Positions 18,533 to 51,029 are shown, counted from the stretch's first letter. The stretch: DNA of 64,000 nt from Alphaproteobacteria bacterium (GCA_965216755.1 CBDCGL010000011.1:3626963-3690962), one strand, 5' to 3'. Notes: generated by a model from the letters alone, not told the origin. Translations and numbers: made by a program.

Positions 18533-19339
18533 TCAGAACAACAGCTCGATTTGTTCGGGGTGGGTCGCATCGATGACCGGGCCATTGAATTCCTCGATCC
18601 AGCCCCGCGCCCGCAAATCACGGCCGACCAGCTCCTCGAACACATAGCCCTCGGCCTCAAATAGGCGGCGGTCGCGCGGGGCGATGGATATGGTGAAGTC
18701 ACTTCGCCAATCTTCGCCAAAGTTCAAATAGGCGCGGCCGCGCACCACCGCCGCCGAAACCACTGTGCCCTCGACCAACTGGAAGCTGCCAATATCATCG
18801 TCGACCTCGACCACGTCCCGGATCGCGTAAAAGGGGTGGCGCCAAATTCCCGCCGCCGCCTCGCGGGCGGCACGCTCGCGGTCAAGCAAATCGCTGACGC
18901 AAGATCGATTGTCGGCAAAAGTGTAGACGCGCGCCATCCCGGCGCTGACCATCTCACCCTGCACCCACAGCGAATCATCCAAATATAGATGAGCCAGCAA
19001 TCGACCATGGCGGTCGACCTCGCGGCCGCCATGCGCCAGCTGCACGTTACGTCCCAGGACCAATTTTTCCAACGCCTGCTGGGCCTCGTCGGCGAGCGGC
19101 CAAGCCACGAAGTTGCGGCGTCCAAGTGGCAACTTCGGCGCTTGGGTGCCGACCAGGCGGACTTCTCGGCCGCTCTCAAGGACGACCGTGTCACCGTCAA
19201 TCACTTCAACAACCTGTTGGCCCGGACCGACACGCTCAAGATCGCAGGCATCGGCCGGTTTGCCCCAGATCATGAGCGCCAGCGCCGGCAGCAATCCAGC
19301 AAGCAAACGACCACGGCCATGTTTTTGCCATGATGTCAT
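18533..19339 (-). CDS. thermonuclease (SNase-like) family protein
   Basis: Signal/TM segment, then VIDGDTVVL...VRLVGTQAPK...DRHGRLLAHLY...QGEMVSAGMARVY staphylococcal-nuclease motifs. Confidence 0.75.
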   Translation of the reverse strand: MTSWQKHGRGRLLAGLLPALALMIWGKPADACDLERVGPGQQVVEVIDGDTVVLESGREVRLVGTQAPKLPLGRRNFVAWPLADEAQQALEKLVLGRNVQLAHGGREVDRHGRLLAHLYLDDSLWVQGEMVSAGMARVYTFADNRSCVSDLLDRERAAREAAAGIWRHPFYAIRDVVEVDDDIGSFQLVEGTVVSAAVVRGRAYLNFGEDWRSDFTISIAPRDRRLFEAEGYVFEELVGRDLRARGWIEEFNGPVIDATHPEQIELLF

Positions 19340-19379
19340 CGCGTCGCTAGTATCCCCCTTCTTCACTTCACCATCGTCG

Positions 19380-20339
19380 ATGTCACAGATCAACCTTTAC
19401 CCGACCATCGAGCCCTTTGCCAGCGGCCGGCTGCCGCTTGGTTCGCCGCATGTCATGTATTGGGAACAATCGGGCCATCCGGACGGCTGCCCGGTTGTCT
19501 TCTTGCATGGCGGGCCGGGCGCCGGGGCGTCACCGTCCAACCGGCGTTATTTCGATCCGACCCACTATCGCATCATCATCTATGACCAACGCGGCGCCGG
19601 CCGCTCGGCCCCTTTGGGCAGCTTGGTTGACAACACGACGCAACATTTAATCGACGACCTTGAGCAGCTGCGGCGGTTCCTGAAAATAGAGTCATGGATC
19701 GTGTTTGGCGGTTCCTGGGGCAGCACACTTGCGTTGGCATACGCCGAGGCGCATCCAGAGCGGTGTCAAGCGCTTGTATTACGGGGCATTTTTTTGTGCC
19801 AGCCGGAAGAGATCGAATGGTTTCTGCACGGCATGGGGCGGTTCTTTCCAGAGGCCTGGACCGAGTTTGTGGGCCATCTGCGGGCCGACGAACGCGACGA
19901 CATTCTCGCCAACTATTATCGGCGCCTCATCGATTCCGATCCGGCCGTACACGTGCCGGCAGCGCTCGCCTGGAGCCGCTATGAAGGGCGTTGCTCGACC
20001 TTGTTGCCGAGCCTCGAGACCGAACAAGCCTTTGGCAAGGAACGAATGGCCTTGGGGCTCGCCCGAATCGAAGCCCATTACTTTGTCAATCGGCTGTTCT
20101 TGCCAAGTGGCGCTTTGCTGACGGCGATCAAACGGATCCACGATATTCCCGGCTATATCGTACAGGGCCGCTACGACATGGTGTGTCCGCCCCGCACCGC
20201 CGACATGCTGCATCGCGCTTGGCCAAGGTCGCGTTTGAAAATGGTTCCCGAGGCCGGGCATTCGTCACTGGAGCCGGGCATTAGTCGCGCTTTGGTCGCC
20301 GTTATGGACACATTGCGCGACCAAGGCTCGGGCGGGTAA
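19380..20339 (+). CDS. pip: prolyl aminopeptidase (proline iminopeptidase)
   Basis: YPTIEPFASGRLPLGSPHVMYWEQSGHPDGCPVVFLHGGPGAG and GGSWGSTLALAYA motifs. Start at the ATG at 19380. Confidence 0.9.
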   Translation: MSQINLYPTIEPFASGRLPLGSPHVMYWEQSGHPDGCPVVFLHGGPGAGASPSNRRYFDPTHYRIIIYDQRGAGRSAPLGSLVDNTTQHLIDDLEQLRRFLKIESWIVFGGSWGSTLALAYAEAHPERCQALVLRGIFLCQPEEIEWFLHGMGRFFPEAWTEFVGHLRADERDDILANYYRRLIDSDPAVHVPAALAWSRYEGRCSTLLPSLETEQAFGKERMALGLARIEAHYFVNRLFLPSGALLTAIKRIHDIPGYIVQGRYDMVCPPRTADMLHRAWPRSRLKMVPEAGHSSLEPGISRALVAVMDTLRDQGSGG

Positions 20340-20406
20340 ACAGGTCAACACTGCGCCAGTTTGGGCGCGCATTCGCAAGAACAAGCGATATCGAAAGATC
20401 TGGGGG

Positions 20407-20925
20407 GTGACGATGCGAGCGATGCGGGTGGCCGTGTTATTGGCTGTATGGTGTGCGACATTGATAGCAGGCGCGCGCGGCGTGCGCGCCGCCGACGAAC
20501 CGGATTTCCTGGTACTTGGGGTCGGCGCCTACGATGTTCTTGATGACTTCATCGCGACAGAGTTCGACGCGCAGTTTCGTTTCAATGAACGGCTTTGGTT
20601 TATTCGACCGATGGTCGGCGCGATGGCCACCACCGACAGCGCTTTTTTCGCTTATGCCGGGATATTTGCCGACATCAACCTTGGTCAGAGACTGGTCGTG
20701 ACACCAAGTTTTGGCGCCGGCATCTACCACGAAGGCGACGGCAAGGATTTGGGCGGCAATCTGCAATTCCGCTCGGCGGTAGAATTCGCCTATCGATTCG
20801 ATGATCGGGCGCGATTGGGGGTTGAACTCGGCCATTTGTCGAACGGCAGTATTTTGGATACCAATCCGGGCGAGGAATTTATCATCGTCAACTATTCACT
20901 GCCGACCGATGTGTTCACACGATAA
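20407..20925 (+). CDS. acyloxyacyl hydrolase (PagL-like lipid A deacylase family)
   Basis: Signal peptide and small beta-barrel pattern, with a C-terminal GHLSNG...NPG motif containing the His/Ser typical of PagL-like proteins. Confidence 0.65.
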   Translation: MTMRAMRVAVLLAVWCATLIAGARGVRAADEPDFLVLGVGAYDVLDDFIATEFDAQFRFNERLWFIRPMVGAMATTDSAFFAYAGIFADINLGQRLVVTPSFGAGIYHEGDGKDLGGNLQFRSAVEFAYRFDDRARLGVELGHLSNGSILDTNPGEEFIIVNYSLPTDVFTR

Positions 20926-21518
20926 CCGGCGCGCAACCGTCGATATCGCAGGAAAATGATCGTCGCGAAGATCGGCGCGCCCACCGCCGCCAAGATCAAG
21001 AACGGCTGCAACCAGCCAAGCCACGCGACTGGCGCAACGATGAACAATGTGTCGTCCGGGTCAAAACCACCACGGCCGGGAATGGCCTGCGTGCCCGGAG
21101 GTAGCATCGCGTCGATTTGGGCGGCCAGCCAAAAGGTCGCGGTGACCGCCAGCCCCGCGAGTACACCCATGGCCGGCGCCCACCAACCGAGCCCGCTGTT
21201 GACCAGGCCGGCGCCGATACCGACAAAAAGCAGTGCCGTGACGACATTGTCACAAATCAGATCATAGACGTGACCCCAGGCGGATGATTGGCTGGTCATG
21301 CGCGCCAACACGCCGTCGGCACGGTCCAAAAGCATCGATAACACATAGACGATTGCGGCCACCCAATTCCACGTCGCCGCGCCCATCGCGAACAGACCCG
21401 CCGCCGCCAGCCCCGTCACCAGGCGGGCGGTGGTCAAGTGATTCGGCGTGACGGCGGTCCCGGCCAATGGCCGCACCGCCGCCGTAACCACTCGGTGCGC
21501 CCAGGTATTATGACTCAT
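20892..21518 (-). CDS. CDP-alcohol phosphatidyltransferase family protein
   Basis: Perfect D-x2-DG-x2-AR-x8-G-x3-D-x3-D motif (DRADGVLARMTSQSSAWGHVYDLICD) in a polytopic membrane protein. Confidence 0.9.
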   Translation of the reverse strand: MSHNTWAHRVVTAAVRPLAGTAVTPNHLTTARLVTGLAAAGLFAMGAATWNWVAAIVYVLSMLLDRADGVLARMTSQSSAWGHVYDLICDNVVTALLFVGIGAGLVNSGLGWWAPAMGVLAGLAVTATFWLAAQIDAMLPPGTQAIPGRGGFDPDDTLFIVAPVAWLGWLQPFLILAAVGAPIFATIIFLRYRRLRAGYRVNTSVGSE

Positions 21519-22284
21519 CGCCGTTGCCCGCCGTCGCCGGTGATTGGGGAAGGGGCTGAAGTTGCGGCCAAACACAGCGTTCGGCCATGTCGATGTCGTC
21601 GGGAAAATCGATCTCGGTCCAGGGCAGTCCGGTAATGTCCTCGAAGCCGAAAGCCCCCGGCGGTTCCGCGATCAACAAGTCGCGCAGCGCCTCATCATAG
21701 TAGTCGGTGGTTTGGCCGGCATCGATATAGCGGCGAGTGGCGTCGGCCAGGCGTCTGGCCATGTGCCCGGACAGGCGGAAAAAGCCGACCGATTCACCGT
21801 GCCAATCGTGAGCATGCTCTGGTTGTTTGCGAAAGTCGACCAATTGGCCGTTCTTCACGCAAAGTTTCGCCGGCTCGTCACCGGGTTCGATATTACGGTC
21901 AAGCAAGAAGCAGTTGGCGTGGCGCGAACCGAGCAGTCGCGCGATCATGCGCTGATCGTAAAGGACATCGCCGTCCATCAGCAACACGTCGTCGCCGGCC
22001 GACAAATGGGCGCGCAGCGCCCATTGGGTCACGATGCTGCCCGCGCGATAGTCCGGATTGTGGACCGTCTCAATCGGAATGCCGGCAACGGACTGGGCCA
22101 GTTCGTGCGTGATATCGGCGGCACGATAACCGGTTGCGACGACAATTCTATCGACTCCGCAACTCTGCAATATGCGAACATGTCTTTCCAACAGTGTGTG
22201 GCCGCCAAAGCGCAGCAGAATCTTCGGCCCGTCAACGCCGATCAACCGGTCGCCGACACCGGCGGCAAACAGACACGCGCGCAT
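21508..22284 (-). CDS. LicC-like nucleotidyltransferase (phospho/phosphono-alcohol cytidylyltransferase type)
   Basis: AAGVGDRL (GxGxRL) N-terminal motif and NTP_transferase fold pattern. The ATG at 22284 overlaps the upstream stop; the 106-codon upstream extension is Arg-rich and rejected. Confidence 0.8.
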   Translation of the reverse strand: MRACLFAAGVGDRLIGVDGPKILLRFGGHTLLERHVRILQSCGVDRIVVATGYRAADITHELAQSVAGIPIETVHNPDYRAGSIVTQWALRAHLSAGDDVLLMDGDVLYDQRMIARLLGSRHANCFLLDRNIEPGDEPAKLCVKNGQLVDFRKQPEHAHDWHGESVGFFRLSGHMARRLADATRRYIDAGQTTDYYDEALRDLLIAEPPGAFGFEDITGLPWTEIDFPDDIDMAERCVWPQLQPLPQSPATAGNGDES

Positions 22285-23270
22285 CAAGATACGCCGCGCG
22301 ACCGCGCGCGCCACCAGCGGTGCCCCTCGATCGCCTGCCAGGCAATCAGGCCGGGGACGCCGCCCAGGATTTCGCGCATCCGTCTGACGATCGCAATGGC
22401 GAGGCCGACATCGGCGCCGAGACCCAACACGCCAGCCACGATCATATAGCCGCCTTCCTGAAGGCCGAGCCCGCCGGGTACGGCGAACGCCGCGCTGCGC
22501 ACCGCTTGCACCAAGCCCTGAATGATCAAGGCTTCGACCATGCCCGCCGGGACCCCCATGAATGCCAATGCCAGATACACTTCGCCGGCGCCGAGCGCCC
22601 AACTCACCAGATGATAGACCGAAGCGACCGCCATCTCGCGGCGTCTGCCATAGGTCGCGCGTACGGCGCGGTCCAACCGGCGCGCACCGCCAACCAAGTT
22701 TGCCAGACTGTCGCCGCCCAAGCGCTCGATAAATCCGGCAAGAAACCCAAACAAGCCGCGTTGTTGAACGGCGGCGAAGCCGACAACGGCGGCAAAGAAC
22801 AATGCAGTAACCGCAAGCACAGCGCCGGTTAACTCGCGACCGCCATCATGGTGCGCAACCAAAAGGCCCAAGGCCACCAAGGTAAACAGGGCCTGCATCA
22901 GCACGATCAACGTCATATCGACGACCAAACTGGCCGCGGCCAGCGGCCCCGGCATGCCGCGCACGATCAAAAGTCGCGCCACCACCACATCGCCGCCGAT
23001 CTGTGCGACCGGCAGCAGTTGGTTTACCGACTGGCGAATCCAACGCATTTTCCACGCCACCAACAGCGACGGGCGCGCCCGGGTCGCCGCCACGCGACGC
23101 CAGCCAAAGGCGTCGGCCAATAGCGGAATGGCATCGAAGGCGACGATGATCAAGATCCCCCAGCCAACCGTGACTAAGGCTTCGGCCAAGGTATCGGCGC
23201 CACGCCACACAACCAAACCCGTAAACAGCGCCAAGCCGGCCAAACCAAACAGGACCATGAGCCGTTTCAT
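22284..23270 (-). CDS. UPF0104 / lysylphosphatidylglycerol-synthase-TM-region (HpnL-like, flippase-like) membrane protein
   Basis: 328-aa polytopic protein starting MKRLMVLFGLAGLALFTGLVVWRG..., resembling the HpnL/UPF0104 family. Overlaps both neighbours by 1-4 nt. Confidence 0.7.
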   Translation of the reverse strand: MKRLMVLFGLAGLALFTGLVVWRGADTLAEALVTVGWGILIIVAFDAIPLLADAFGWRRVAATRARPSLLVAWKMRWIRQSVNQLLPVAQIGGDVVVARLLIVRGMPGPLAAASLVVDMTLIVLMQALFTLVALGLLVAHHDGGRELTGAVLAVTALFFAAVVGFAAVQQRGLFGFLAGFIERLGGDSLANLVGGARRLDRAVRATYGRRREMAVASVYHLVSWALGAGEVYLALAFMGVPAGMVEALIIQGLVQAVRSAAFAVPGGLGLQEGGYMIVAGVLGLGADVGLAIAIVRRMREILGGVPGLIAWQAIEGHRWWRARSRGVS

Positions 23271-25900
23271 GGCTCTTGGGTCCTCGCCGTGGCGATCGTC
23301 ATCAGGGCCGGCAACAATAGGATCGTGGCCGCGAATGTTACGCCAACGCCAATGATCAGCAGCATACCCATACTTGCCGTGCCGACATGTTCGGACACGG
23401 CCAAGGCCCCGAAACCAGCCATGGTGGTCGCCGCGCTCAACAAGGCGGCGCGCGCCGTCGATGTCGCCAGGACGGGTTGTGCCGGCGCGGCGCGCTGGCG
23501 CCGCATCAGGTGAATGGCGCTGTCGACACCAATGCCCAGCAGCAGGGGCAGTACGATGACATTGGCGAAGTTGAAGGTCATCCCGGCAAGCGTCATGATC
23601 GCGGCCGTCAACAGCGCGCCCAGCAACAGCGGTGCCATCACCAAGGCGACGTCGATCGGACGCCGGGTTACGATCAGCAACAATGCGGCGATCGAAACCA
23701 ATGCGGCCAGCAGAGCCTGAATAAAAGCCGTTATCACGGTATCGCCTGCTTCCAACACCAAAACCGGTTGATCGGTGATATCTTCAGCAACCGTTCGCAC
23801 GGCATCGACAAAGCGCACCAAGGCGTCATTGTTGGCGACGATGTCCTCGGCCGGGAAGACCTGAACCCGTTGGCCGCCATCGCGCGCCTGGAATTGCGCC
23901 CGCAGGTCCTCTGGCAGCGCCGATTCGGTAAACGGCGCGGCGGTAAGCGATGCGTCCAACAGGGCGATCTGATAGGGCAATGCACCGAGCCAGGCGTCGC
24001 GAATAGCCGCCAGTGAGATCGACCTGTCGTCACCGGCGCGCAGGGCGCGATCCAATGCGGTGCGCAGGTCGGATACGCCGGCGGGCGCGTCAGGGCGCGC
24101 TGTGGCAACTTGGTCAAGTGCGCGCAGCAGGGCCTTCAAGGCGAGCTGTTCTTCATCCGGTGTGCTCGCGGTGCCGGGCGCCAAAGCAAACGGATCTGGT
24201 TCAGACACAAACGCAATGTCTTGGATGATTTCGTATTTCGTATCTTGATCTGCGGGCACGAAGTCGTCCAATGTGATGGCTTCGTCAACTTCGGGCAGCT
24301 GTTCGAAGGCGGTCTTGAGAGACGCCGCCTCGGCGCGGTCGGCGGCGACAACGGACGCGGTCCACGGCTTGGTCTGGGTGTCGTCCAGCAAAGTGCGCAG
24401 CGCGGTGACCGATTCACGTGCCGGATTTTGTAGGTTGAGCGGGTTCGGGTCGAAGCCGACCTGTGGCGCCACCGCCAAGCCGACCAGTGCCAGCACGGCG
24501 GCACCAATCGCGATCGGGCGCGCGTTGCGGTGCGGCCAGTGCGCGAATCGGTTTGCGCGTTGTGACCGCGGGCGCACTGAGCCGGGTGGCAACACCAGCG
24601 TCAACAGCGCCGGCAAAACCGTCAGGTTGGCGAAGAGACTGACGAACATGCCCGTGCCGGCGATAACGCCCAACTCCGACACACCGTCATAGTCGGTCAG
24701 CAAAAAGGCATAAAACCCGACCGCGGTCGACACGGCGCACAAGGTCAGGGCACCGCCGACGGCGCGTCCGGCTTTGGCAACGGCCGCGGTTGGATCGAAG
24801 CCGGCGGCGACCATCTCGCGGAAACGCAATCCATAGTGGATGCTGGCATCGATCCCAAGACTGACGAACAGAACCGCAAACGCGATCGAGATCAGGTTCA
24901 AATGTCCGACCAGGACCGCGGCAAACCATGCCGTCCACACCAGGCCGATGGCCAACGTCACCAATGCGGCGATCACCAAGCGGATAGAGCGTAAGCCAAC
25001 TAACAAAATCACCGCGACCAAGAACAACGCCACCAGTCCGGCGTGCTGCGCGCCCAATTGGGCGGATTCAAGCTCGTCATGGCCAAGCGCAACCGTGCCT
25101 GTCAATGACACCGTGACTCCGTTGGTCGGCGTTAGGGCCGCCGCGGCCGCGATATCGCGAATCGACTGTAGAACCGCCGCGCCCGGCATCAGCTGCGCGT
25201 AGTCGAGTGCGGCCGGCTGGACAACGATCACGGCGCGTAGGTCGGCCGCGGTCGGCGCGGTCCCGTGCATGATCTCAACCCAAGACAACTGCGCCGGGAC
25301 GCCGTCCAACAGGTTCTCGATCACACGCCCCATGCGTGTGAACAGCAACGCCAAATCTTCCAGCGGAGCCGCTTTGGTCAAGGCATCGTCGATGCCCAAC
25401 CGCAAGACCGCGGAAAGACCGCGCAGGCTCATGTCCTGGCGCAGGCGCTGCAACAGCGGCTGTGCCTCGCCCAAATCGTCGAGCAGGTCGAGAAGTTCCG
25501 CCTCGCTGAGATAGAACAAACCATTGTTGGCAAAAAACGCGCCGGCGCCCGGGGCGTAGACATAGGGAAAATGTTCCGGCTGGGCGTTAAGCGCGGTGGT
25601 GAGTGTGTCGCGCGCGGCGCGGACGCGATCGGGCGTGTCTGCTTCCAACAGAACGGTGACCGTGTCGTTCAGGCGCGGGAACTGCGCCTTGTAGGCTTTG
25701 TAAGTTCTCAGAAACGGTGTTTCGTCGGAGATCAAGTCCAAGGTGTCGGTATCGATTGTCATGGTCGCGACCGTATAGGGAACGGTCGCGGCGGCGCTGA
25801 CAATGGCCAAGATCACGACCCACACTGCGTATCGCTGAACAGTACCGAGCCACGTCGCCAAGACACGATCGAGCGGGGCTGTCGGTTGGCGATCAGACAA
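23267..25900 (-). CDS. HpnN-like RND/MMPL family lipid exporter
   Basis: 877 aa with two 6-TM bundles and two periplasmic loops. The N-terminal ...TIDTDTLDLISDETPFLRTYKAYKAQFP... matches the hopanoid-transporter HpnN-type pattern. Confidence 0.8.
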   Translation of the reverse strand: MSDRQPTAPLDRVLATWLGTVQRYAVWVVILAIVSAAATVPYTVATMTIDTDTLDLISDETPFLRTYKAYKAQFPRLNDTVTVLLEADTPDRVRAARDTLTTALNAQPEHFPYVYAPGAGAFFANNGLFYLSEAELLDLLDDLGEAQPLLQRLRQDMSLRGLSAVLRLGIDDALTKAAPLEDLALLFTRMGRVIENLLDGVPAQLSWVEIMHGTAPTAADLRAVIVVQPAALDYAQLMPGAAVLQSIRDIAAAAALTPTNGVTVSLTGTVALGHDELESAQLGAQHAGLVALFLVAVILLVGLRSIRLVIAALVTLAIGLVWTAWFAAVLVGHLNLISIAFAVLFVSLGIDASIHYGLRFREMVAAGFDPTAAVAKAGRAVGGALTLCAVSTAVGFYAFLLTDYDGVSELGVIAGTGMFVSLFANLTVLPALLTLVLPPGSVRPRSQRANRFAHWPHRNARPIAIGAAVLALVGLAVAPQVGFDPNPLNLQNPARESVTALRTLLDDTQTKPWTASVVAADRAEAASLKTAFEQLPEVDEAITLDDFVPADQDTKYEIIQDIAFVSEPDPFALAPGTASTPDEEQLALKALLRALDQVATARPDAPAGVSDLRTALDRALRAGDDRSISLAAIRDAWLGALPYQIALLDASLTAAPFTESALPEDLRAQFQARDGGQRVQVFPAEDIVANNDALVRFVDAVRTVAEDITDQPVLVLEAGDTVITAFIQALLAALVSIAALLLIVTRRPIDVALVMAPLLLGALLTAAIMTLAGMTFNFANVIVLPLLLGIGVDSAIHLMRRQRAAPAQPVLATSTARAALLSAATTMAGFGALAVSEHVGTASMGMLLIIGVGVTFAATILLLPALMTIATARTQEP

Positions 25901-25915
25901 GGGACGCGTGAGACC

Positions 25916-27097
25916 TTAGACGGTGGCCAAATGGCGGCGCAATCGTTGCGCGACCGCTGCTGGCGTGACCGTTGGGCGCGGCAGACCAGCCGGGACGCCG
26001 GGCCGGGTGGGCAGGTGCACAAAGTGCGGCCCGGGCCCCTGTTCGCCCAATCTATTCGCCAATACATGCGGCGTCGTGACACGTTGGGTGGTGGCATAGC
26101 CGCACGCGGCTGCGACCGCGCAAAAATCGACGGTGTGCGAAACGGTCGCTTGACCGCCGGTCGATTCATGCATGCCGTTGTCGAATAGAATATGCACCAG
26201 ATTGTTGGGGCGCGCCGCGCCGATCGTGGCCAGTGCACCAAGGCGCATCAAGGCGGCACCATCGCCATCCAAGGCAATCACGCGCACGTCTGGCCGCGCC
26301 AGCGCGAGCCCCAGCGCAAGGCTGGATACGCAGCCCATCGAACCGACCATGTAGAGCTGGTTTGGCCGGTCTTCCAACCCATAAAGGGCGCGGCCGGTAA
26401 ACCCCGTCGTGGCGATGATCACGTCGCGCGCGCCGCTCGTCGCCTGCACCGCCGCCAGCAGTTCGTGGCGCGTCGCGTCGGCGGGCGTCGCGACCGTCGG
26501 TATAGCGGTGCGCGGCGCCGGTCGGTTGGTCTCGTTCTGGGCTAGGGGATAGGGCGCGACACTCCCCTTCGACATCAAAAGGGCATACGGGCGACCGGTC
26601 TTGCGGCGCTGCGCGTCGGCGCGGTCAAAAACGCCGGCGACCGCTTCGGATGTGCGCGGAAACGGCTCCCACGGCACCTGCAACAGTTCCAATTGGCGAC
26701 CGGTTATGGGGCCCATCAGCCCATGTTGCGGTTCATCCCCGGCGCCGCCCGGCTGGCCCCGCCAAGTGACGATCAGCAGCAACGGGATGTTGAAGATGTG
26801 GGTCAACGACGACAATGGGCTGACCGCGTTGCCTAGCCCGGAGTTTTGCATCATCACCACACTGCGCCGACCACCGAGCTCGGCACCCGCCGCAATGGCG
26901 ACCGCATCGCCTTCATTCGTCGCACCGACATAGTCCAATCCGTCGGCCCCAATCACGTAGTTGATGAACGGGGTCAGATAGGAACAAGGCACGCCTGTGA
27001 ACAGATCGTAGCCGCGCGCTTTGGCGGCGCCTATAAACGCCTCGGCGTCGATCACAATGTCACACGAAATTGCCGGCGACCAACAGGTCGTCGACAT
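25916..27097 (-). CDS. ppd: phosphonopyruvate decarboxylase
   Basis: [10 protein letters not shown]-terminus; ThDP motif [31 protein letters not shown]. Start uncertain: ATG 27097/27100 (overlaps pepM) or GTG 27055 just after the pepM stop. Confidence 0.9.
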
Positions 27098-28721
27098 CAT
27101 CGATGTCGAGCCAATGCCCGGTTGTGTAGACGACCCGCACCTTCTGGCCCGCGCCAACCAAGCGATTGAACAACGCATCGATGCCGGCGTTTTCGAACGC
27201 CACGCGATCGTCGTCGCGCCAGCCCGTGAGGGTTTCAAAGGCCACCTGCGCGCCGGCGGCCGTGAAGCGCGCCACCCCCATCCACTCGCCGTGGATCTTG
27301 CCGGATAGTGCCGGTCCCATCTCGGCCAGCCAGACCGGGGCATAGTAGGCCTCGCGGCTATTGGGCAGTGAACATTTAACATAGTCGGCCGCCCGATTGG
27401 CGCCGCGATTGCGGCTGGTTTTCCAGTTGGTATCGACGGCAATGGTGATGTCGGCGTCGCTTTCCGTCAGCATGTCCAGCACATAACGACGAAACAGCAC
27501 GTCGCCATAGGATACGAACACGTCCCTGGTCGCAGGTTGCAGTGCCAGCGCCAGGGACACGATCTCTTGCGTGGTGTCGTAAGCGAGATTGTCGACATAA
27601 TCGAGGGCGGGCAGGTCGATCTTGTGCTTGGCATAGCCGCGCACCACGGTGATGTCTTTGACATCGGCTTTGCGGTAAACCTCGGCTATGTGCGCCAAGA
27701 TCGGCTTGCCGGCCACATCCAGCATTGCTTTCGGCTTGTGCTCGGTCAGGGCGCCCAATTCGCGGCCGCGCGAGGCAGCCAAAATGATCGCCGTCGCGGC
27801 GCCCTGGCTGGGTAGATAAGTTTCCTCGGCCCGCTTCAGTTCATCGGCGCCTTGCAAGCGAAACACTTCCGCCACCGGCGCGATCGCGTGTTCGACGCCA
27901 AGCAAATTTTCGTCGTCATGAATGGTCGCCGCGGTGCGCTGCATGGCGGTGATTGCCGCGCGCAGCAAATGATTGGCCCAAATCACCATCGAAACGCCGT
28001 GATCGCGGAACGCGTCGGTGGGGGTGGTGTAGTATTTGGTCGGTACCAACACCACCGGGCAGCGCCGATCCCAGGCGCGCAAGAAGCTGAACACTTCATC
28101 AGCGTTGGATCCGGCACTGTGAATCAAGATCGCGTCGGCACCAGCCGCATGATAGGCGCGCGCCCGGCGCAAGGCCTCCTCGAGCCCCCAACCGGCAATG
28201 AATGCTTCGACCCGTGCGACAATGGAAAAATCCGGATCGTGCTGGGCCGCCTTGCCGGCCCGAATCTTGCCGCAAAACTCATCGATGTCAGCCAGCGGCT
28301 GTGTGGCGCCGGCAATGAAGCTGTTGGTCTTCGGGAACTGTTTGTCCTCGATGCAGACCGCCGCCACGCCACGGCTTTCCAACTTTTGCACGAGCCGGCG
28401 CATATTGTTGAAATTGCCATATCCAGTGTCGCCGTCGAGCATGATCGGCACGGTGCACGCGTCGTTCATGAATTCGACCACTTCAAGCACCTGGGTCCAG
28501 CTGGCCTCATTGTTGTCGCGCACACCAAGCGCCGCCGCCATTGACAAGCCACTGGCCCAAACCGCGCCGAACCCGGCCTCCTCGGCGATTTTCGCGCTCA
28601 GGCCGTTATGTGCCTCGCACACAAAACTAAGTTCCGGGGTGTTCAAGGCGGCGCGGAAACGGGCAGCGCGCGACAGTTGCGCGCGTGGCGCGGTCTCGAT
28701 CGGTACGGCAGGTGCCTGCAT
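27060..28721 (-). CDS. pepM: phosphoenolpyruvate mutase fused to a C-terminal nucleotidyltransferase domain
   Basis: PepM-specific EDK-x5-NS motif ([13 protein letters not shown]) in the N-terminal ~300 aa. The C-terminal ~250 aa has [10 protein letters not shown]...KPKAML (GxG-type NTP-transferase motif). Confidence 0.9.
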
Positions 28722-28820: not shown

Positions 28821-29153
28821 ATGGCAAAGGCACCCTCAACCGGTTCTGATCGTGTCGCCAGCGACAAGGTGGTGTGTCGGACGCCGACACCCAACAAACG
28901 GCCGACTCGGATTCCACGTTGGAAATTCGACGCGGTGGCCGACGCTATTCGCACCGTAGTCCCGCGGGCGGGAGATGGCGTGGTGTTCAAAGACCTTCCG
29001 GGCTTGGTGGCCGGTGTGCTTGGCGACGATGTCAAACACCAGCTGGGATCTGTGGGCTGGCATGTGGCGACGGTCAAGTTGGAGCTGGAAGTACGCGGCG
29101 AGTTGGTTCGCGTGCCCCGCGCCAAACCGCAGCGCCTGCGGCGCCGTTCGTGA
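28821..29153 (+). CDS. hypothetical protein (110 aa, basic)
   Basis: ATG at 28821, high GC3 and a coherent sequence; divergent from pepM. No motif recognised. Confidence 0.45.
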   Translation: MAKAPSTGSDRVASDKVVCRTPTPNKRPTRIPRWKFDAVADAIRTVVPRAGDGVVFKDLPGLVAGVLGDDVKHQLGSVGWHVATVKLELEVRGELVRVPRAKPQRLRRRS

Positions 29154-29293: not shown

Positions 29294-30268
29294 ATGAAAG
29301 CGATCCTGGCGCATGAATTCGGCGGACCCGAGGTTCTGAAGTACGAACAGACGGCGGACCCGGTCGCCGGCCCTGGCGACGTCGTGATCGACGTGAAAGC
29401 CGCCGGAATTAATCCGGCAGACACCTACATGCGCGGTGGCGCCTATGCGATTGTGCCGCCCTTGCCGTACACGCCGGGCGGCGATGCGGCGGGTGTGATC
29501 GCCGCCGTCGGTGCGGGGGTCAGTGATTTCGCAGTTGGCGACCATGTCTTCGTTGGCACGGCGATGGGCTTTAACATGACCGGCTGCTACGCGGAAAAAG
29601 TCGTGCGGCCGGCAACCGATGTGCTGCCGTTGCCCAAAGGCGTCAGCTTCGCCCAGGCCGCCGCCCTCGGCGTGCCGTATGCCACCGCGCACTACGCCCT
29701 GTTCGCGCGCGGCGGCGCCGAAACGGGCGAAACCGTATTCGTCCATGGTGCGTCGGGCGCCGTTGGCACGGCCGCGATCCAGCTTGCCAAACGCGCCGGT
29801 CTGACCGCAATGGGTTCCGCCGGTACAGAACGCGGATTGACTTTGGTGCGCGAACAGGGCGCGGCGCACGCCGTCGATCACAGCAAAGAGGGATATATCG
29901 AACAGCTCCGCGGGCTAACCGGCGGTACCGGGCCGGCGCTCATTCTGGAAATGTTGGCCAACGTCAATCTCGCCGCCGATCTTGATCTGGTGGCGAAATA
30001 TGGTCGCATCGTCGTGATTGGCAATCGCGGCGAAATCACCATCAACGCGCGCGTGGCCATGATGAAGGAATTGGACGTGCGCGGCATCGCCCTGTTCAAT
30101 GGCGCGGCGGCCCAGATGCGCGAGATCATGACAGATCTGGTCGCGGGGCTTGAAGATGGGACGCTCAACCCGATTGTCGGTCGCGAGATGCCGCTGGCTG
30201 AAGCGGCGGCGGGCCATGTCGCCGTGTTGGAGCCTGGCGCTTTCGGCAAGATCGTGCTTGTGCTTTGA
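29294..30268 (+). CDS. NADPH:quinone oxidoreductase (MDR/zeta-crystallin family)
   Basis: MKAILAHEFGGPEVLKYE...PGGDAAGVIAAVG...VHGASGAVGTAAIQLAK Rossmann motif. Confidence 0.85.
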   Translation: MKAILAHEFGGPEVLKYEQTADPVAGPGDVVIDVKAAGINPADTYMRGGAYAIVPPLPYTPGGDAAGVIAAVGAGVSDFAVGDHVFVGTAMGFNMTGCYAEKVVRPATDVLPLPKGVSFAQAAALGVPYATAHYALFARGGAETGETVFVHGASGAVGTAAIQLAKRAGLTAMGSAGTERGLTLVREQGAAHAVDHSKEGYIEQLRGLTGGTGPALILEMLANVNLAADLDLVAKYGRIVVIGNRGEITINARVAMMKELDVRGIALFNGAAAQMREIMTDLVAGLEDGTLNPIVGREMPLAEAAAGHVAVLEPGAFGKIVLVL

Positions 30269-34054: not shown

Positions 34055-34290
34055 GGCGGCTCCGACGGTTTCACACAACCTCGGCCAGCGTAAAGCTTAT
34101 CGCTGGCACGCGCGATCCCCAGCCATGGTCAGGTTGGTTTGTAAACACGAACCATCGGCGCCAGCATGCCTCGCTGGCGATTGTGTCGATCAATGGTCGA
34201 CCCGAAGCCCGGCGGGATTCGGACTTGCCGGCAAAGCCGCGCCAGGCGATGGTGCCAAACATCAATTCCCAATCGAAGGAGCGATTTGTG

Positions 34291-34926
34291 ATGGCGTTGG
34301 ATGTCATCGATGTTGGGCTCGGCCGCACCGGGACCATGTCTCTCAAACTGGCGCTGGAACAGCTCGGGTTTGGTCCTTGCCACCACATGGAGGAAGTGCT
34401 CAAGGCGCCAGACCAGGCGCAGCAATGGCTGGCCGCTGCCGATGACAACCCGGTCGATTGGGATGCGGTATTCAACGGATATCGCGCGGCCGTCGACTGG
34501 CCGACTGCGCGCTTCTGGCGCGCGATCATAGATCAATACCCCGACGCCAAAATCATTCTGACGACGCGCGACCCGAACAGCTGGTTCAAGAGTATCTCGG
34601 GAACCATTCATTTGGTTCTTGAGGGGCGTGAGAAAATCGGCAACCCGGTCATGCGCCAGGTCATGGATATGGCGCATCGCATCATTTCCGATCAGACATT
34701 TGCCGGTCGTCTCGGCGAGGCCGCGCACGCAACAGAGGTCTTTCGACGACATAATGCGGCGGTGATCGAAGCGGTGCCGCCGGATCGTCTGCTCGTGTTT
34801 GAGGTTGCGCAAGGTTGGGGGCCGCTCTGCGACTATCTCGGATGCCCGGCGCCGGATACGCCGTTTCCGCGGGTCAACAGCACGAAAGAATTTTGGGAAC
34901 TGGTCGAACAGGCAAGCGGTGGTTGA
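34291..34926 (+). CDS. sulfotransferase family protein
   Basis: VIDVGLGRTGTMSL (PAPS 5'-phosphosulfate-binding loop-like) and ILTTRDPNSWFKS (3'-phosphate-binding-like). AAGGAG RBS upstream. Confidence 0.65.
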   Translation: MALDVIDVGLGRTGTMSLKLALEQLGFGPCHHMEEVLKAPDQAQQWLAAADDNPVDWDAVFNGYRAAVDWPTARFWRAIIDQYPDAKIILTTRDPNSWFKSISGTIHLVLEGREKIGNPVMRQVMDMAHRIISDQTFAGRLGEAAHATEVFRRHNAAVIEAVPPDRLLVFEVAQGWGPLCDYLGCPAPDTPFPRVNSTKEFWELVEQASGG

Positions 34927-39463: not shown

Positions 39464-39715
39464 GTCGCGCGGCCACATCCGGCATATGGTGCGATACAGA
39501 ATCCCAAGTACCGGCGGAAGCGCCGGTCGCTACGCCGTGCACGCACAACAGCCCATGTTCGCGCGCATTTGTTTGGTTATCGCGGCGCGCGTATCGTAAC
39601 AGTAGAAAGCACGTGGCCGGCGCGGGGATCGATCCGTATTTGGCGCAATCGTGGTGTACGAGCATCCTGTTGTCGCGCCAGGTCGATCCCCCAAAATGTT
39701 GTGGAGGAAACGGCA

Positions 39716-40798
39716 ATGGCTGTGCAGCGTCGATCATTCCTGAAAGGGGGTGCCGCTGGCGCGTTGGTGGCCGCGTCAACGTTGCCGAAACCGGCACTAT
39801 CGCAAGGCCGCTTACGGTGGAAAATGGTCACCTGCTGGCCAAAGAACTTTCCTGGCCTCGGCATGACCGCCAATCAGATTGGCGAGCAAATCACCAAAAT
39901 GAGCGAAGGCCGGCTTGAGGTGCGGGTCTACGGCGCGGGTGAAATCGTGCCCGCGTTCGAAGTCTTTGATGCCGTGCGCAGCGGCATCGCCGAACTTGGT
40001 CATGGCTGGGATGGCTATTGGATAGCCAAGCATCCAGGGGCGCCGTTCTTTGGCGGCGTGCCAAACGGATTAGGGCCACATGAGCAAGTATCTTGGATCA
40101 TGCACGGCGGCGGCCAGGAATTGTGGGAAGAGCTGTACGCGGACTTTGACGTGCAACCGTTCATCGCCGGAGTCAATCCGCCGTCATTTTTCGGCTGGTA
40201 TCGTCGCCCGGTCGAATCGCTTGACGACCTCGGTGGCTTGAAAATTCGTATGGCCGGGTTGCCGGGAGAGGTTCTCAATCGTCTCGGTGCGACGTCGGTC
40301 AACATCCCTGGCGGCGAGATCATGAGTGCCCTGCAAGCCGGCGTCGTCGATGCCGTTGAATGGGGCGGTGCATGGGCGGATCTTGCCTTCGGTTTCCAGA
40401 AGATCGCCAAAATTTGCTATTGGCCGGGCATACACGAGCCCGGGGCGTCGAATTCCTTGCTGGTCAACAAGGCTTTGTTCGATGCACTGTCCGATGACTT
40501 GAAAGAGATCGTCAAGGTCGCATCGCACAACGGGATCAATCGGCTTTATGCCGAATCCACCCATCAAAACGCGATCAGCTACCAAGTCCTGCAAGACAAA
40601 CATGATGTTGCGTTCAAACGGCTGCCGGATGATGTGATCGCTGCATTCCTGAAAGTTAGCTTGGATGTGATGCGCGAAACAGCCGAGAAAGACTCCTTGG
40701 CCTTGCGTATCCACGATCATTTCATGGCGTTTCGCGAACGGGCGAGCGCCATAGCCCCTGTGGTCGAGCTCGGCTATCTAAGTGCCCGCTCGGCGTGA
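39716..40798 (+). CDS. TRAP transporter substrate-binding protein (DctP family), Tat signal
   Basis: RRSFLKGGAAGAL twin-arginine signal and DctP-like body. GGAGGA RBS. No dctQ/dctM adjacent. Confidence 0.8.
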   Translation: MAVQRRSFLKGGAAGALVAASTLPKPALSQGRLRWKMVTCWPKNFPGLGMTANQIGEQITKMSEGRLEVRVYGAGEIVPAFEVFDAVRSGIAELGHGWDGYWIAKHPGAPFFGGVPNGLGPHEQVSWIMHGGGQELWEELYADFDVQPFIAGVNPPSFFGWYRRPVESLDDLGGLKIRMAGLPGEVLNRLGATSVNIPGGEIMSALQAGVVDAVEWGGAWADLAFGFQKIAKICYWPGIHEPGASNSLLVNKALFDALSDDLKEIVKVASHNGINRLYAESTHQNAISYQVLQDKHDVAFKRLPDDVIAAFLKVSLDVMRETAEKDSLALRIHDHFMAFRERASAIAPVVELGYLSARSA

Positions 40799-40843
40799 CG
40801 CGATCACCATGCGGACTACAAACTGGCGACGGAGGAGCAGCTG

Positions 40844-50951: not shown

Positions 50952-51029
50952 TCGCGCCGCCTCCGCTGCAATGGGCGTGCGGGAAGGGGCGGTTCGGCCT
51001 CACGGCGCGCATGTGTGTGCGAACGGCAA

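What the first reader, a model, noticed from the sequence alone, without database searches (positions are those of the whole stretch)
20892..28721. Six-gene phosphonate operon combining PepM/Ppd with lipid-headgroup transferase and hopanoid-type (HpnN/HpnL-like) export genes
All six genes are on the minus strand with overlapping or nearly abutting start and stop codons. They are a PepM-NTase fusion, Ppd, an HpnN-like RND/MMPL transporter, a UPF0104 (HpnL-like) membrane protein, a LicC-like nucleotidyltransferase and a CDP-alcohol phosphatidyltransferase.

The enzyme signatures are unambiguous:
- EDK-x5-NS for PepM
- the GDG...NN ThDP motif for Ppd
- D-x2-DG-x2-AR-x8-G-x3-D-x3-D for the transferase

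The logic suggests a C-P headgroup is made, nucleotide-activated, transferred to a lipid alcohol, then flipped and exported to the outer membrane. Phosphonolipid synthesis via CMP-aminoethylphosphonate and a CDP-alcohol-type transferase is known from eukaryotes, and similar clusters have been predicted bioinformatically in bacteria. As far as I know, a bacterial operon of this composition, especially with an HpnN/HpnL-type pair, has not been characterised biochemically.

The acceptor could be diacylglycerol, or speculatively a hopanoid polyol. A PagL-like lipid A deacylase converges on the operon end and overlaps it by 34 nt (20892..20925).
Basis: partly seen in the sequence, partly recalled or inferred. 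Interest (0 to 1): 0.8.

Follow-up and report, generated by a model that had tools for sequence, protein, structure and literature searches.

The report
Phosphonate-lipid operon carrying hopanoid export genes
Six co-transcribed genes in an uncultured alphaproteobacterium make a carbon-phosphorus head group, activate it and very likely attach it to a membrane lipid and export it. Comparison with related loci suggests that lipid may be a hopanoid, which would be a lipid class nobody has yet observed.

Summary
Six tightly packed minus-strand genes (20892-28721) encode a PepM-nucleotidyltransferase fusion, Ppd, an HpnN-family RND transporter, an HpnL-family MprF-flippase-like protein, a PntC-like nucleotidyltransferase and a CDP-alcohol phosphotransferase. 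A PagL-like gene converges on the operon and overlaps it by 34 nt.

The operon is a variant of the catalogued but biochemically uncharacterised 'Group 1 phosphonolipid / Burkholderiales_CDP-OH' pepM neighbourhood. It lacks that cluster's AEP transaminase and 2OG oxygenase and gains hpnN. HpnL is a core gene of that cluster.

New here: this phosphonate/CDP-OH/HpnL gene set is repeatedly embedded in hopanoid (hpn) gene islands:
- Roseomonas, Mycetohabitans and many metagenome contigs show the arrangement.
- Orthologues of the CDP-OH transferase sit in hpnL-hpnI-hpnJ-hpnK-CDPOH operons with no pepM.
- Natural CDP-OH::HpnL fusions exist.
- The window's RND protein nests among hopanoid-cluster HpnNs.

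I commit to a CMP-phosphonate head group transferred to a bacteriohopanepolyol, flipped by HpnL and exported by HpnN (about 0.4). Diacylglycerol as acceptor is the main rival (about 0.3).

Unresolved:
- No transaminase lies in the operon or the window.
- The genome's hopanoid capacity is unknown.
- No phosphono-hopanoid has ever been reported.

Verdict: a new variant of a known kind, with interest about 0.68.

The parts
27060..28721 (-). pepM-NTase fusion: PEP mutase domain (residues ~17-305) plus a C-terminal MobA/LicC-type nucleotidyltransferase domain (residues ~308-553)
   Evidence: TIGR02320 scores 381.9, above the 319.6 cutoff, and PF12804 is present. The motif [10 protein letters not shown] is at residue 125. 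The best solved structure is Mytilus PEP mutase 1M1B, E 1e-121, and the NTase part matches LicC 1JYK. The fused NTase signature [10 protein letters not shown] is a variant conserved across PepM fusions.
25916..27055 (-). ppd, phosphonopyruvate decarboxylase (ThDP-dependent); GTG start 4 nt after the pepM stop
   Evidence: TIGR03297 scores 420.3, above the 312.5 cutoff. The start was set by DNA reading and comparison with the Ppd N-terminus in L001.
23267..25900 (-). hpnN-family RND (HAE3/MMPL) inner-membrane lipid transporter
   Evidence: TIGR03480 scores 885.5, above the 751.9 cutoff. NF052374 scores 651, below its 1100 cutoff, but hopanoid-island HpnNs from L089 and L090 also score only 720-743 on that model. 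The protein matches B. multivorans HpnN 5KHN over its full length, E 9e-125. Equivalents of D344, T818, T819 and L826 are conserved. It nests among hopanoid-cluster HpnNs in an NJ tree.
22284..23270 (-). hpnL-family membrane protein (stand-alone MprF-type flippase-like domain); ATGA overlap with hpnN
   Evidence: PF03706 is present, TIGR03476 scores 306.2 against a 195.7 cutoff, and TIGR00374 'flippase-like domain' also matches. The AlphaFold model has pLDDT 90.3. The four best Foldseek hits are all MprF, TM 0.58-0.60, and every other hit has TM at or below 0.30. Natural CDP-OH::HpnL fusions exist.
21508..22284 (-). pntC-like stand-alone nucleotidyl(cytidylyl)transferase; 1-nt overlap with hpnL
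   Evidence: PF12804 is present. The best solved structure is T. denticola PntC (Tde1415, 6PD1), E 1e-11 over residues 2-242. It is 45-52% identical to the PntC genes of the Roseomonas and Mycetohabitans clusters.
20892..21518 (-). CDP-alcohol phosphotransferase family membrane enzyme (the longest ORF starts at 21575; the conserved start MSHNTW is at 21518, overlapping pntC by 11 nt)
   Evidence: PF01066 is present and the canonical motif D65..D90 is invariant in alignment A1. The profile's best solved matches are AF2299, CEPT1, PIPS, IPCT-DIPPS and CHPT1. Orthologues lie next to hpnN, hpnL, hpnIJK, shc or pepM in metagenome loci.
20407..20925 (+). PagL-like outer-membrane protein, convergent with the operon, with a 34-nt 3' overlap on the CDP-OH gene; its link to the system is uncertain
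   Evidence: PF09411 scores 65.9 bits. There is no NCBIfam hit. The convergent position is conserved in L001, L003, L004 and L007. A pip-PagL pair also flanks an hpnL-hpnIJK-CDPOH operon in L147.

Best explanation
The operon builds and exports a phosphonate-capped membrane lipid. I think the most likely lipid is an extended hopanoid (a bacteriohopanepolyol).

Proposed steps:
1. PepM converts PEP to phosphonopyruvate. The enzyme identity is shown here.
2. Ppd decarboxylates it to phosphonoacetaldehyde. The enzyme identity is shown here.
3. A transaminase or reductase encoded elsewhere converts this to 2-aminoethylphosphonate or a close relative. This step is inferred: the enzyme is missing from the operon.
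4. One or both nucleotidyltransferases make the CMP-phosphonate. This is inferred from PntC homology.
5. The CDP-alcohol-type transferase moves the phosphonyl head group from CMP onto a lipid hydroxyl at the cytoplasmic face. This is inferred. I take the acceptor to be a bacteriohopanepolyol side-chain hydroxyl.
6. HpnL, a stand-alone homologue of the MprF flippase domain, flips the product. This is inferred from fold and from natural fusions.
7. The HpnN-family RND pump passes it towards the outer membrane. This is inferred from homology with B. multivorans HpnN.
For: Enzyme identities and tight operon structure are established.

Relation to the known cluster:
- All six proteins have counterparts at 35-57% identity in the Roseomonas and Mycetohabitans clusters. 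Five of these belong to the phosphonate cluster; the sixth is the MMPL/HpnN gene of the adjoining hopanoid island.

Evidence for a hopanoid link:
1. In Roseomonas marmotae p1318-3 the phosphonate genes lie between hpnN/VacJ and ispH-hpnH-hpnG-shc-hpnEDC.
2. In Mycetohabitans pBRH01 they abut dxs, hpnN, hpnM, ispH, hpnH and hpnA.
3. In L090, hpnG sits between the CDP-OH gene and the oxygenase and PntC genes.
4. A metagenome scan seeded with the CDP-OH alignment returned 79 independent loci. Of these, 30 have hpnL adjacent, 12 have hpnN and 14 have hpnI/J/K. The superclusters L096, L145 and L171 run shc-hpnG-hpnH-ispH-hpnA-pntC-pepM-ppd-CDPOH-hpnN-hpnL-hpnM.
5. Of the 30 loci that are at least 8 kb long, 24 carry at least one hpn-associated gene and only 1 carries neither hpn nor phosphonate genes.
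6. In L113 and 13 other loci the orthologous CDP-OH gene is next to hpnI, hpnJ or hpnK. The complete ones, including L113, read hpnL-hpnI-hpnJ-hpnK-CDPOH. In L113, HpnI, HpnJ and HpnK pass their equivalog cutoffs, and the gap between hpnK and the CDP-OH gene is 0-40 nt in most loci.
7. The window's RND protein nests among hopanoid-island HpnNs and keeps the HpnN relay and hinge residues.
8. CDP-OH::HpnL fusion proteins exist, and HpnL has the MprF transmembrane fold.
9. Independent data from bioRxiv 10.1101/2025.07.29.667474: the supplement lists 'CDP-alcohol phosphatidyltransferase' 1409 times near 3662 shc loci, comparable to hpnG (1398) and hpnN (1333). It also reports PepM and Ppd presence correlating with SHC presence, r 0.33-0.38.
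10. PMC12583986 reports hpnL absent from all alphaproteobacterial genomes that lack hpnH.
Against: - No phospho- or phosphono-hopanoid has been reported. The 2025 UHPLC-MS survey of 52 alphaproteobacteria lists 63 BHP structures, and my search of that paper for 'phospho' and 'phosphate' turned up none that is P-linked.
- The window (64 kb) and its relatives' loci contain no shc, hpnH, hpnG or hpnCDE, so hopanoid synthesis in this organism is unproven.
- In Burkholderia and Cupriavidus the seven-gene core is more than 12-20 kb from any hopanoid gene.
- L123-type loci and the L088 fusion sit in non-hopanoid contexts.
- The eukaryotic precedent for CMP-AEP transfer uses diacylglycerol or ceramide (my own knowledge).
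- No transaminase or reductase for phosphonoacetaldehyde is present.
- The metagenome scan was seeded with CDP-OH sequences, some of which came from hopanoid islands. That biases it towards similar contexts.
Confidence: 0.4

Rival explanations
1. This is a classical phosphonolipid pathway. The same head-group chemistry applies, but the CDP-alcohol transferase uses diacylglycerol (or another glycerolipid or ceramide) as acceptor. That would give a phosphonate analogue of phosphatidylethanolamine. HpnL flips it, and the HpnN-type pump has been recruited to move this lipid, not hopanoids, to the outer membrane.
For: - The cluster family is already predicted to make phosphonolipids (Group 1, PMC8942020).
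- The CDP-OH profile matches CEPT1 and CHPT1, which use diacylglycerol acceptors.
- Burkholderia and Cupriavidus cores, and L123-type loci, are not adjacent to hopanoid genes.
- No hopanoid biosynthetic gene lies in the 64-kb window.
- MprF, the fold relative of HpnL, flips a glycerophospholipid.
Against: - It does not explain why orthologous CDP-OH genes sit inside hpnL-hpnIJK operons and shc islands.
- It does not explain why HpnL's distribution is confined to hopanoid producers.
- No such phosphonolipid has been detected in Burkholderia despite cluster expression (PMC8942020).
- HpnN-family pumps are so far known only for hopanoids.
Confidence: 0.3
2. Two functions share one transcript. hpnN and hpnL are simply the organism's hopanoid export genes. 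The pepM, ppd, pntC and CDP-OH genes decorate something else, such as a glycan, lipid A or a soluble alcohol as in DIPP synthase. They are co-regulated with hopanoid export because both remodel the outer membrane.
For: - The NTase plus CDP-OH pair resembles IPCT/DIPPS, whose substrates are soluble.
- A PagL-like lipid A deacylase gene is conserved next to the operon.
- HpnL occurs in a hopanoid island with no phosphonate or CDP-OH genes (L089).
- Most pepM clusters with NTases are thought to tailor glycans (PMC6697681).
Against: - CDP-OH::HpnL fusions argue that the transferase's product is HpnL's substrate.
- hpnN and hpnL are wedged between ppd and pntC with overlapping codons.
- No glycosyltransferase, LicD-type or polysaccharide export genes are in the operon.
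Confidence: 0.15
3. The operon is a decaying or incomplete remnant. With no transaminase, oxygenase or reductase it makes no finished head group, and it persists only because hpnN and hpnL are needed.
For: - AEPT and the oxygenase are missing here and in the relatives whose loci span the whole operon and its flanks (L001, L003, L004, L007).
- L090 shows apparently fragmented pepM and ppd.
Against: - All six ORFs are intact with catalytic motifs.
- Gene order and coupling are conserved across lineages whose PepM is only 63-72% identical and whose HpnN is 47-52% identical. That implies long-term purifying selection.
- Reversible PhnW-type transaminases are common elsewhere in bacterial genomes (my own knowledge).
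- L096 also lacks AEPT within a complete supercluster.
Confidence: 0.08

Closest known systems
'Group 1 phosphonolipid' / 'Burkholderiales_CDP-OH' pepM gene neighbourhoods (Yu et al. 2013 as summarised by Li & Horsman 2022, PMC8942020)
   Same: Both have a PepM-NTase fusion, Ppd, a second PntC, a CDP-alcohol phosphatidyltransferase and an LPG_synthase_TM (HpnL) protein. The window's versions are 35-57% identical to the Mycetohabitans and Roseomonas members. The product is uncharacterised in both.
   Different: The window lacks the AEP transaminase and the 2OG/PhyH oxygenase of the seven-gene core. It contains an hpnN-family RND gene inside the operon, between ppd and hpnL, and has a different gene order.
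Hopanoid (hpn) gene islands with HpnN (B. multivorans, PDB 5KHN) and HpnL (TIGR03476)
   Same: The RND protein matches HpnN over its full length and passes TIGR03480. The membrane protein passes TIGR03476. The hpnN-hpnL adjacency is the same as in L096, L110, L130 and L145.
   Different: No shc, hpnH, hpnG, hpnCDE or hpnIJK lies within the 64-kb window. The pair is co-transcribed with phosphonate genes instead. HpnL function is unknown in the hopanoid literature, and those papers do not mention phosphonates.
MprF (lysyl-phosphatidylglycerol synthase/flippase)
   Same: A head-group-adding enzyme is paired with a PF03706 flippase-type membrane domain. The HpnL model superposes on MprF transmembrane domains, TM 0.58-0.60. 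The CDP-OH::HpnL fusions mimic MprF's two-module design.
   Different: The synthase module belongs to an unrelated family (CDP-alcohol transferase, not aminoacyl-tRNA-dependent). In the window it is a separate gene. No sequence-level PDB hit was found.
Kennedy-type CMP-AEP / CDP-alcohol phosphotransferases (CEPT1/CHPT1) and archaeal IPCT-DIPPS / AF2299
   Same: The two-step logic is the same: an NTase makes a CMP-activated head group, then a membrane CDP-alcohol transferase moves it to an alcohol. These are the best solved matches of the CDP-OH profile and of the free NTase.
   Different: Similarity is distant (E 1e-5 to 1e-11, motif region only). The acceptor is unknown here. The bacterial context includes hopanoid exporters.
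PntC phosphonate cytidylyltransferases (T. denticola Tde1415, A. rimae Ari1348; PMC6697681)
   Same: The free NTase aligns over its full length with the Tde1415 NTase domain (6PD1). A PF12804 domain fused to PepM is the commonest PepM fusion.
   Different: The characterised PntCs belong to phosphonoglycan-type clusters of oral anaerobes. The substrate here is untested. The PepM-fused domain has a variant N-terminal signature, LAA(S/A)RGxELG.

Membership tests
PEP mutase (PepM/Ppm/AepX) | EDK-x5-NS catalytic motif and a score above the TIGR02320 equivalog cutoff | tested here: met
   [10 protein letters not shown] is at residue 125. TIGR02320 scores 381.9 against 319.55. Mytilus PEP mutase 1M1B matches at E 1e-121.
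Phosphonopyruvate decarboxylase (Ppd/AepY) | Full-length match above the TIGR03297 cutoff, with both ThDP-binding domains | tested here: met
   TIGR03297 scores 420.3 against 312.5 over profile positions 1-360 of 360. PF02776 and PF02775 are both present.
PntC (phosphonate-specific cytidylyltransferase) | LicC/MobA-type NTase fold located in a pepM cluster | tested here: met
   PF12804 occurs in both NTases. The free NTase's best solved match is Tde1415 PntC 6PD1.
PntC (phosphonate-specific cytidylyltransferase) | Preference for AEP over phosphocholine | not testable with these tools
   This needs an enzyme assay. No AEP-forming transaminase is encoded nearby.
CDP-alcohol phosphotransferase family | D-x2-D-G-x2-A-R-x8-G-x3-D-x3-D motif in a polytopic membrane protein | tested here: met
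   The motif at residues 65-90 is invariant across the 9 cluster-associated homologues. PF01066 scores 55.3 against 22.
Group 1 / Burkholderiales_CDP-OH pepM cluster (seven-gene core) | PepM-NTase fusion, Ppd, second PntC, CDP-OH transferase and LPG_synthase_TM protein | tested here: met
   All five are present and homologous to the Mycetohabitans and Roseomonas members.
Group 1 / Burkholderiales_CDP-OH pepM cluster (seven-gene core) | AEP transaminase (AEPT) in the cluster | tested here: not met
   tblastn found no AEPT homologue anywhere in the window at E<=1e-5. None was seen in L001, L003, L004 or L007.
Group 1 / Burkholderiales_CDP-OH pepM cluster (seven-gene core) | alpha-ketoglutarate/Fe(II) oxygenase in the cluster | tested here: not met
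   No homologue of the Mycetohabitans 2OG oxygenase or the L090 PhyH protein is in the window. A TauD-family gene at 40844-41749 is 12 kb away and unrelated to these queries.
HpnN hopanoid transporter | Score above the family model cutoffs | tested here: inconclusive
   It passes TIGR03480 (885.5 against 751.9) but fails NF052374 (651 against 1100). HpnNs inside hopanoid islands of L089 and L090 fail NF052374 as well, scoring 720-743. The stricter model is therefore lineage-restricted.
HpnN hopanoid transporter | Full-length similarity to structurally characterised HpnN, with the proton-relay and hinge residues present | tested here: met
   5KHN matches at E 9e-125 over residues 22-868. Equivalents of D344, T818, T819 and L826 are conserved. 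The roles of these residues are recalled from Kumar et al. 2017 and were not re-read here.
HpnN hopanoid transporter | Encoded in a genome that makes hopanoids, usually near hpn genes | not testable with these tools
Orthologues in L096, L145, L171, L085 and L087 do lie in hpn islands.
HpnL (TIGR03476) | Score above cutoff and an MprF-type flippase-like transmembrane fold | tested here: met
   TIGR03476 scores 306.2 against 195.65. The model has pLDDT 90.3 and its top four Foldseek hits are MprF.
PagL lipid A 3-O-deacylase | Match to the PagL model, and catalytic residues | tested here: inconclusive
   PF09411 scores 65.9 bits but covers only profile positions 59-135. There is no NCBIfam hit. 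Catalytic residues were not examined.

The most novel reading that the evidence does not exclude
The operon makes phosphonate-capped bacteriohopanepolyols ('phosphonohopanoids'), a lipid class never observed. By extension, so would the whole Group 1 pepM cluster family, which accounts for 36% of the pepM neighbourhoods in the RefSeq survey of PMC8942020. On this reading the associated CDP-alcohol transferase family is a general hopanoid head-group transferase, and HpnL is the dedicated flippase that hands such polar hopanoids to HpnN. That would give HpnL its long-missing function and link two fields, phosphonate natural products and hopanoid biology, that currently do not cite each other.
Probability: 0.35. 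Interest if true: 0.85.

Novelty: new variant of a known kind. Interest (0 to 1): 0.68.

Why it matters
Two open questions become directly testable.

1. What is the product of the commonest class of bacterial pepM clusters? According to PMC8942020 it is uncharacterised despite evidence of expression.
2. What does HpnL do? It is a hopanoid-associated gene whose function two 2025-26 hopanoid papers still describe as unclear or not yet established.

The window's operon is the most compact statement of the link. It couples phosphonate synthesis, a CDP-alcohol transferase, hpnL and hpnN translationally in one transcript.

If the acceptor is a hopanoid, there are three consequences:
- It defines a new lipid class, with consequences for outer-membrane biology in Burkholderia and its relatives.
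- It affects the interpretation of hopanoid biomarkers.
- It adds a lipid-bound, acid-stable pool to the marine phosphonate (C-P) budget.

If the acceptor is diacylglycerol, HpnN-family pumps are not hopanoid-specific, which is also new.

Tried and rejected
1. An exact-protein lookup of the window's PepM found no record. I used homologues instead.
2. I considered the neighbouring alpha/beta-hydrolase (19113-20339) as an extra component, because homologues lie next to the cluster in B. multivorans and in L147. I rejected it: it is a prolyl aminopeptidase (TIGR01249 scores 363.9 against 259.8), a housekeeping enzyme.
3. I considered the divergent Zn-ADH/quinone oxidoreductase (29294-30268) as the missing phosphonoacetaldehyde reductase. 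I rejected it: it is absent from all relatives' loci and belongs to the PIG3-type quinone reductase family.
4. I first read the failure of NF052374 as evidence that the RND protein is not HpnN. I rejected that after calibrating against HpnNs from hopanoid islands.
5. The sigma-70 promoter and terminator scans were uninformative: 0 promoters, and terminators at background level.
6. A sequence search of HpnL against the PDB gave nothing. Only the fold comparison worked.
7. Yu et al. 2013 (PMC3870699) is not held. I rely on Li & Horsman's summary of it.
8. I could not determine whether the window's genome encodes shc or an AEPT elsewhere. AcnA is only 72-76% identical to anything named, so the organism is an unplaced Rhodospirillales-like alphaproteobacterium.
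9. The 80 closest PepM-fusion loci outside the window's clade (Nitrospira, spirochaetes, Gemmatimonadota and others) lack CDP-OH, HpnL and HpnN. PepM similarity alone does not track this cluster type.

Full report
**1. Observation**

The window (GC about 0.62, no compositional anomaly) carries six minus-strand ORFs between 20892 and 28721.

Pfam and NCBIfam assign them as follows:
- PepM with a C-terminal MobA/LicC-type NTase: TIGR02320 scores 381.9 against 319.6.
- Ppd: TIGR03297 scores 420.3 against 312.5.
- An RND/MMPL protein that passes TIGR03480 'HpnN' (885.5 against 751.9).
- A PF03706 membrane protein that passes TIGR03476 'HpnL' (306.2 against 195.7).
- A second PF12804 NTase.
- A PF01066 CDP-alcohol phosphotransferase.

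The PepM motif [10 protein letters not shown] and the full CDP-OH motif are present.

Refined starts put ppd at GTG 27055, the NTase at ATG 22284 and the transferase at ATG 21518. The junctions are then a 4-nt gap, a 15-nt gap, an ATGA overlap, a 1-nt overlap and an 11-nt overlap. Terminator-like sites are at background level.

A PagL-like gene (PF09411) converges on the operon with a 34-nt overlap.

The same order, followed by PagL, pip and an SNase gene, recurs in Rhodospirillaceae-like MAG contigs whose PepM is 63-72% identical and whose HpnN is only 47-52% identical. The arrangement is therefore old and maintained.

**2. Surroundings and organism**

The flanks are core chromosome:
- On one side: aconitase, htpG, carD, rpoH, a nuclease and prolyl aminopeptidase.
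- On the other: a DUF6958 gene, a quinone oxidoreductase, a Na/H exchanger and others.

AcnA is at most 76% identical to anything in the database. Named hits are scattered over Rhodospirillales-like families. The host is a poorly sampled alphaproteobacterium.

The window contains no AEP transaminase, 2OG/PhyH oxygenase, shc, hpnH, hpnG, hpnCDE, ispH or MlaA/MlaC homologue. It also lacks the UbiE-type methyltransferase that lies upstream of pepM in three relatives.

**3. What it is related to**

Li & Horsman (PMC8942020) describe a 'Burkholderiales_CDP-OH' family, equal to Group 1 phosphonolipids of Yu et al. It covers 36% of the RefSeq pepM neighbourhoods in their survey. Its seven-gene core is:
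- a PepM-PntC fusion;
- Ppd;
- AEPT;
- a 2OG oxygenase;
- a second PntC;

The product has never been characterised.

I retrieved members from Mycetohabitans, Roseomonas, Burkholderia and Cupriavidus replicons. The two 'phospholipid' genes are a CDP-OH transferase and an LPG_synthase_TM protein that passes TIGR03476 HpnL.

The window's six proteins are 35-57% identical to counterparts in the Roseomonas and Mycetohabitans loci. The operon is thus a variant of this known, uncharacterised cluster: minus AEPT and the oxygenase, plus hpnN.

**4. The hopanoid connection**

Named replicons and one metagenome contig:
- In Roseomonas marmotae the phosphonate genes lie between hpnN/VacJ and ispH-hpnH-hpnG-shc-hpnE-hpnD-hpnC.
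- In Mycetohabitans they abut dxs, hpnN, hpnM, ispH, hpnH and hpnA.
- In L090, hpnG sits between the CDP-OH gene and the oxygenase and PntC genes.

A metagenome scan seeded with an alignment of the cluster's CDP-OH transferases (A1) gave 79 independent loci:
- 30 have hpnL next to the transferase, 12 have hpnN and 14 have hpnI/J/K.
- L096, L145 and L171 are full superclusters (shc ... hpnA-pntC-pepM-ppd-CDPOH-hpnN-hpnL-hpnM).
- Six of the nine loci that contain pepM or ppd also carry hopanoid-associated genes.
- Among the 30 loci of at least 8 kb, 24 have at least one hpn-associated gene and only one has neither hpn nor phosphonate genes.

The hpnI/J/K group was not anticipated by the seed. 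The complete loci, such as L113, read hpnL-hpnI-hpnJ-hpnK-CDPOH. In L113, HpnI, HpnJ and HpnK pass their equivalog cutoffs. The transferase starts 0-40 nt after hpnK in most loci. No pepM is present. This places the CDP-OH family inside the operon that tailors the hopanoid side chain.

Independent support comes from bioRxiv 10.1101/2025.07.29.667474:
- Its supplementary table lists 'IPR000462 CDP-alcohol phosphatidyltransferase' 1409 times among genes within 20 ORFs of 3662 shc loci. For comparison, hpnG appears 1398 times, hpnN 1333 and hpnL 379.
- Its correlation table gives Ppd r = 0.385 and PepM r = 0.334 with SHC presence in one proteobacterial column.
- Its main text mentions neither finding.

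Hopanoid papers call HpnL's function unknown and never mention phosphonates. Phosphonate papers never mention hopanoids. Only one genome-mining paper remarks on a possible 'terpene-phosphonate' in Acetobacteraceae (PMC8776678).

**5. The two membrane proteins**

The RND protein:
- It aligns end to end with B. multivorans HpnN (5KHN, E 9e-125).
- It keeps the equivalents of D344, T818, T819 and L826. The roles of these residues are from my memory of Kumar et al. 2017.
- It fails the strict NF052374 model. So do HpnNs embedded in the hopanoid islands of L089 and L090.
- In an NJ tree the window clade nests among hopanoid-island HpnNs.

HpnL:
- It has no sequence match in the PDB.
- A confident AlphaFold model (pLDDT 90.3) matches only MprF transmembrane domains, TM 0.58-0.60, with all other hits at or below 0.30.
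- Natural fusion proteins with an N-terminal CDP-OH transferase and a C-terminal HpnL domain exist (P0177, P0185, P0186, P0196).
- Together these reproduce the MprF design of synthase plus flippase. They argue that HpnL handles the transferase's product.

**6. Mechanism**

Shown by family assignments: PEP is converted to phosphonopyruvate by PepM, then to phosphonoacetaldehyde by Ppd.

Inferred steps:
- Conversion to AEP or a relative, by an enzyme that is not in the operon.
- Cytidylylation by the PntC-like NTase. Its best solved match is Tde1415 PntC. The PepM-fused domain may also contribute. It carries a conserved variant signature, LAA(S/A)RGxELG.
- Transfer of the phosphonyl head group to a lipid hydroxyl by the CDP-OH enzyme. 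The profile's nearest solved relatives include AF2299/DIPPS, CEPT1 and CHPT1, which use soluble CDP-alcohol donors, alongside the CDP-diacylglycerol-dependent PIPS.
- Flipping by HpnL.
- Delivery to the outer membrane by HpnN.

From the context evidence I rank a bacteriohopanepolyol as the most likely acceptor (about 0.4), ahead of diacylglycerol (about 0.3).

**7. Caveats**

- No P-linked hopanoid has been reported, including in a 52-strain UHPLC-MS survey.
- The window and its relatives' loci lack hopanoid biosynthetic genes.
- The Burkholderia and Cupriavidus cores are not adjacent to hpn genes.
- L123-type loci (ABC importer, sulfatase, PntC, oxygenase, CDP-OH, AEPT; no pepM) and the L088 fusion (sulfotransferase context) lie outside hopanoid islands.
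- HpnL also occurs in a hopanoid island with no CDP-OH gene (L089).
- The missing transaminase is unexplained. L096, a complete supercluster, lacks it too.

**8. Verdict**

The finding is real. The operon is a variant of a catalogued cluster family. The 'speculative' hopanoid acceptor is the better-supported option.

Novelty: a new variant of a known kind. Interest is about 0.68, because it gives a concrete, testable bridge between an uncharacterised but very common phosphonate cluster family and the unassigned hopanoid gene hpnL.

Noticed in passing
window 51023-51129 (-): A TPP riboswitch (RF00059, 68.8 bits against a 54.3 gathering score) lies upstream of the 334-aa ORF at 49947-50951. It is unrelated to the operon.
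   Followed up: no
window 19113-20925; L147 1108-2647: A prolyl-aminopeptidase (pip) plus PagL-like gene pair flanks the window's operon. A similar pair (51% and 39% identity) flanks an hpnL-hpnI-hpnJ-hpnK-CDPOH operon in L147. pip is housekeeping. Whether PagL is functionally tied to these lipid operons is open.
   Followed up: partly
L001 9061-9870, L003 3702-4514, L004 9094-9906: A UbiE/Methyltransf_11-type SAM methyltransferase lies upstream of pepM on the opposite strand in three relatives: directly adjacent in L001 and L004, with a cytochrome c gene between them in L003. It may methylate the head group. It is absent from the window, where DUF6958 (28821-29153) and a quinone oxidoreductase (29294-30268) take its place.
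   Followed up: partly
P0177, P0185, P0186, P0196; L088 8880-10520: Natural fusion proteins combine a CDP-alcohol transferase with an HpnL domain. In L088 the fusion gene is followed by a sulfotransferase gene, an ABC-2 permease gene and, about 8.5 kb further on, a sulfatase gene, with no pepM or hopanoid genes. This may be a different lipid system using the same synthase-plus-flippase pairing.
   Followed up: partly
L123 1223-11800 (also L098, L116, L140, L126): These loci carry an ABC importer, a sulfatase, PntC, an oxygenase, a CDP-OH transferase and AEPT. They have no pepM or ppd within 10 kb. This looks like a salvage version that imports AEP instead of making it.
   Followed up: partly
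L096, L145, L110, L150, L163, L164 around hpnN: Up to three paralogous CDP-alcohol transferase genes flank hpnN in the hopanoid-phosphonate superclusters. They form three separate clades in the NJ tree. The window has only one.
   Followed up: partly
window 27060-27800 (PepM residues ~308-553) and P0002-P0120: Where my pattern matched (49 of the 120 listed PepM-fusion homologues), the PepM-fused NTase domain carries the N-terminal signature LAA(S/A)RGxELG in place of the usual AAGxGxRL. Its activity has not, to my knowledge, been tested.
   Followed up: partly
L090 14553-17149: In this interleaved hopanoid and phosphonate contig, pepM and ppd are called as fragments (356+189 aa and 212+129 aa). 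This suggests frameshifts or assembly errors.
   Followed up: no
window 39569-41749 and 34183-34926: A TRAP-type DctP solute-binding protein sits next to a TauD-family dioxygenase, and a Sulfotransfer_4 protein lies about 5 kb away. This suggests organosulfonate or taurine-type metabolism. I found no link to the operon.
   Followed up: no
bioRxiv 10.1101/2025.07.29.667474, supplementary Tables S7/S8: The published shc-neighbourhood tables already contain the signal: CDP-alcohol phosphatidyltransferase appears 1409 times near shc, and PepM and Ppd correlate with SHC presence. The main text does not discuss it.
   Followed up: yes
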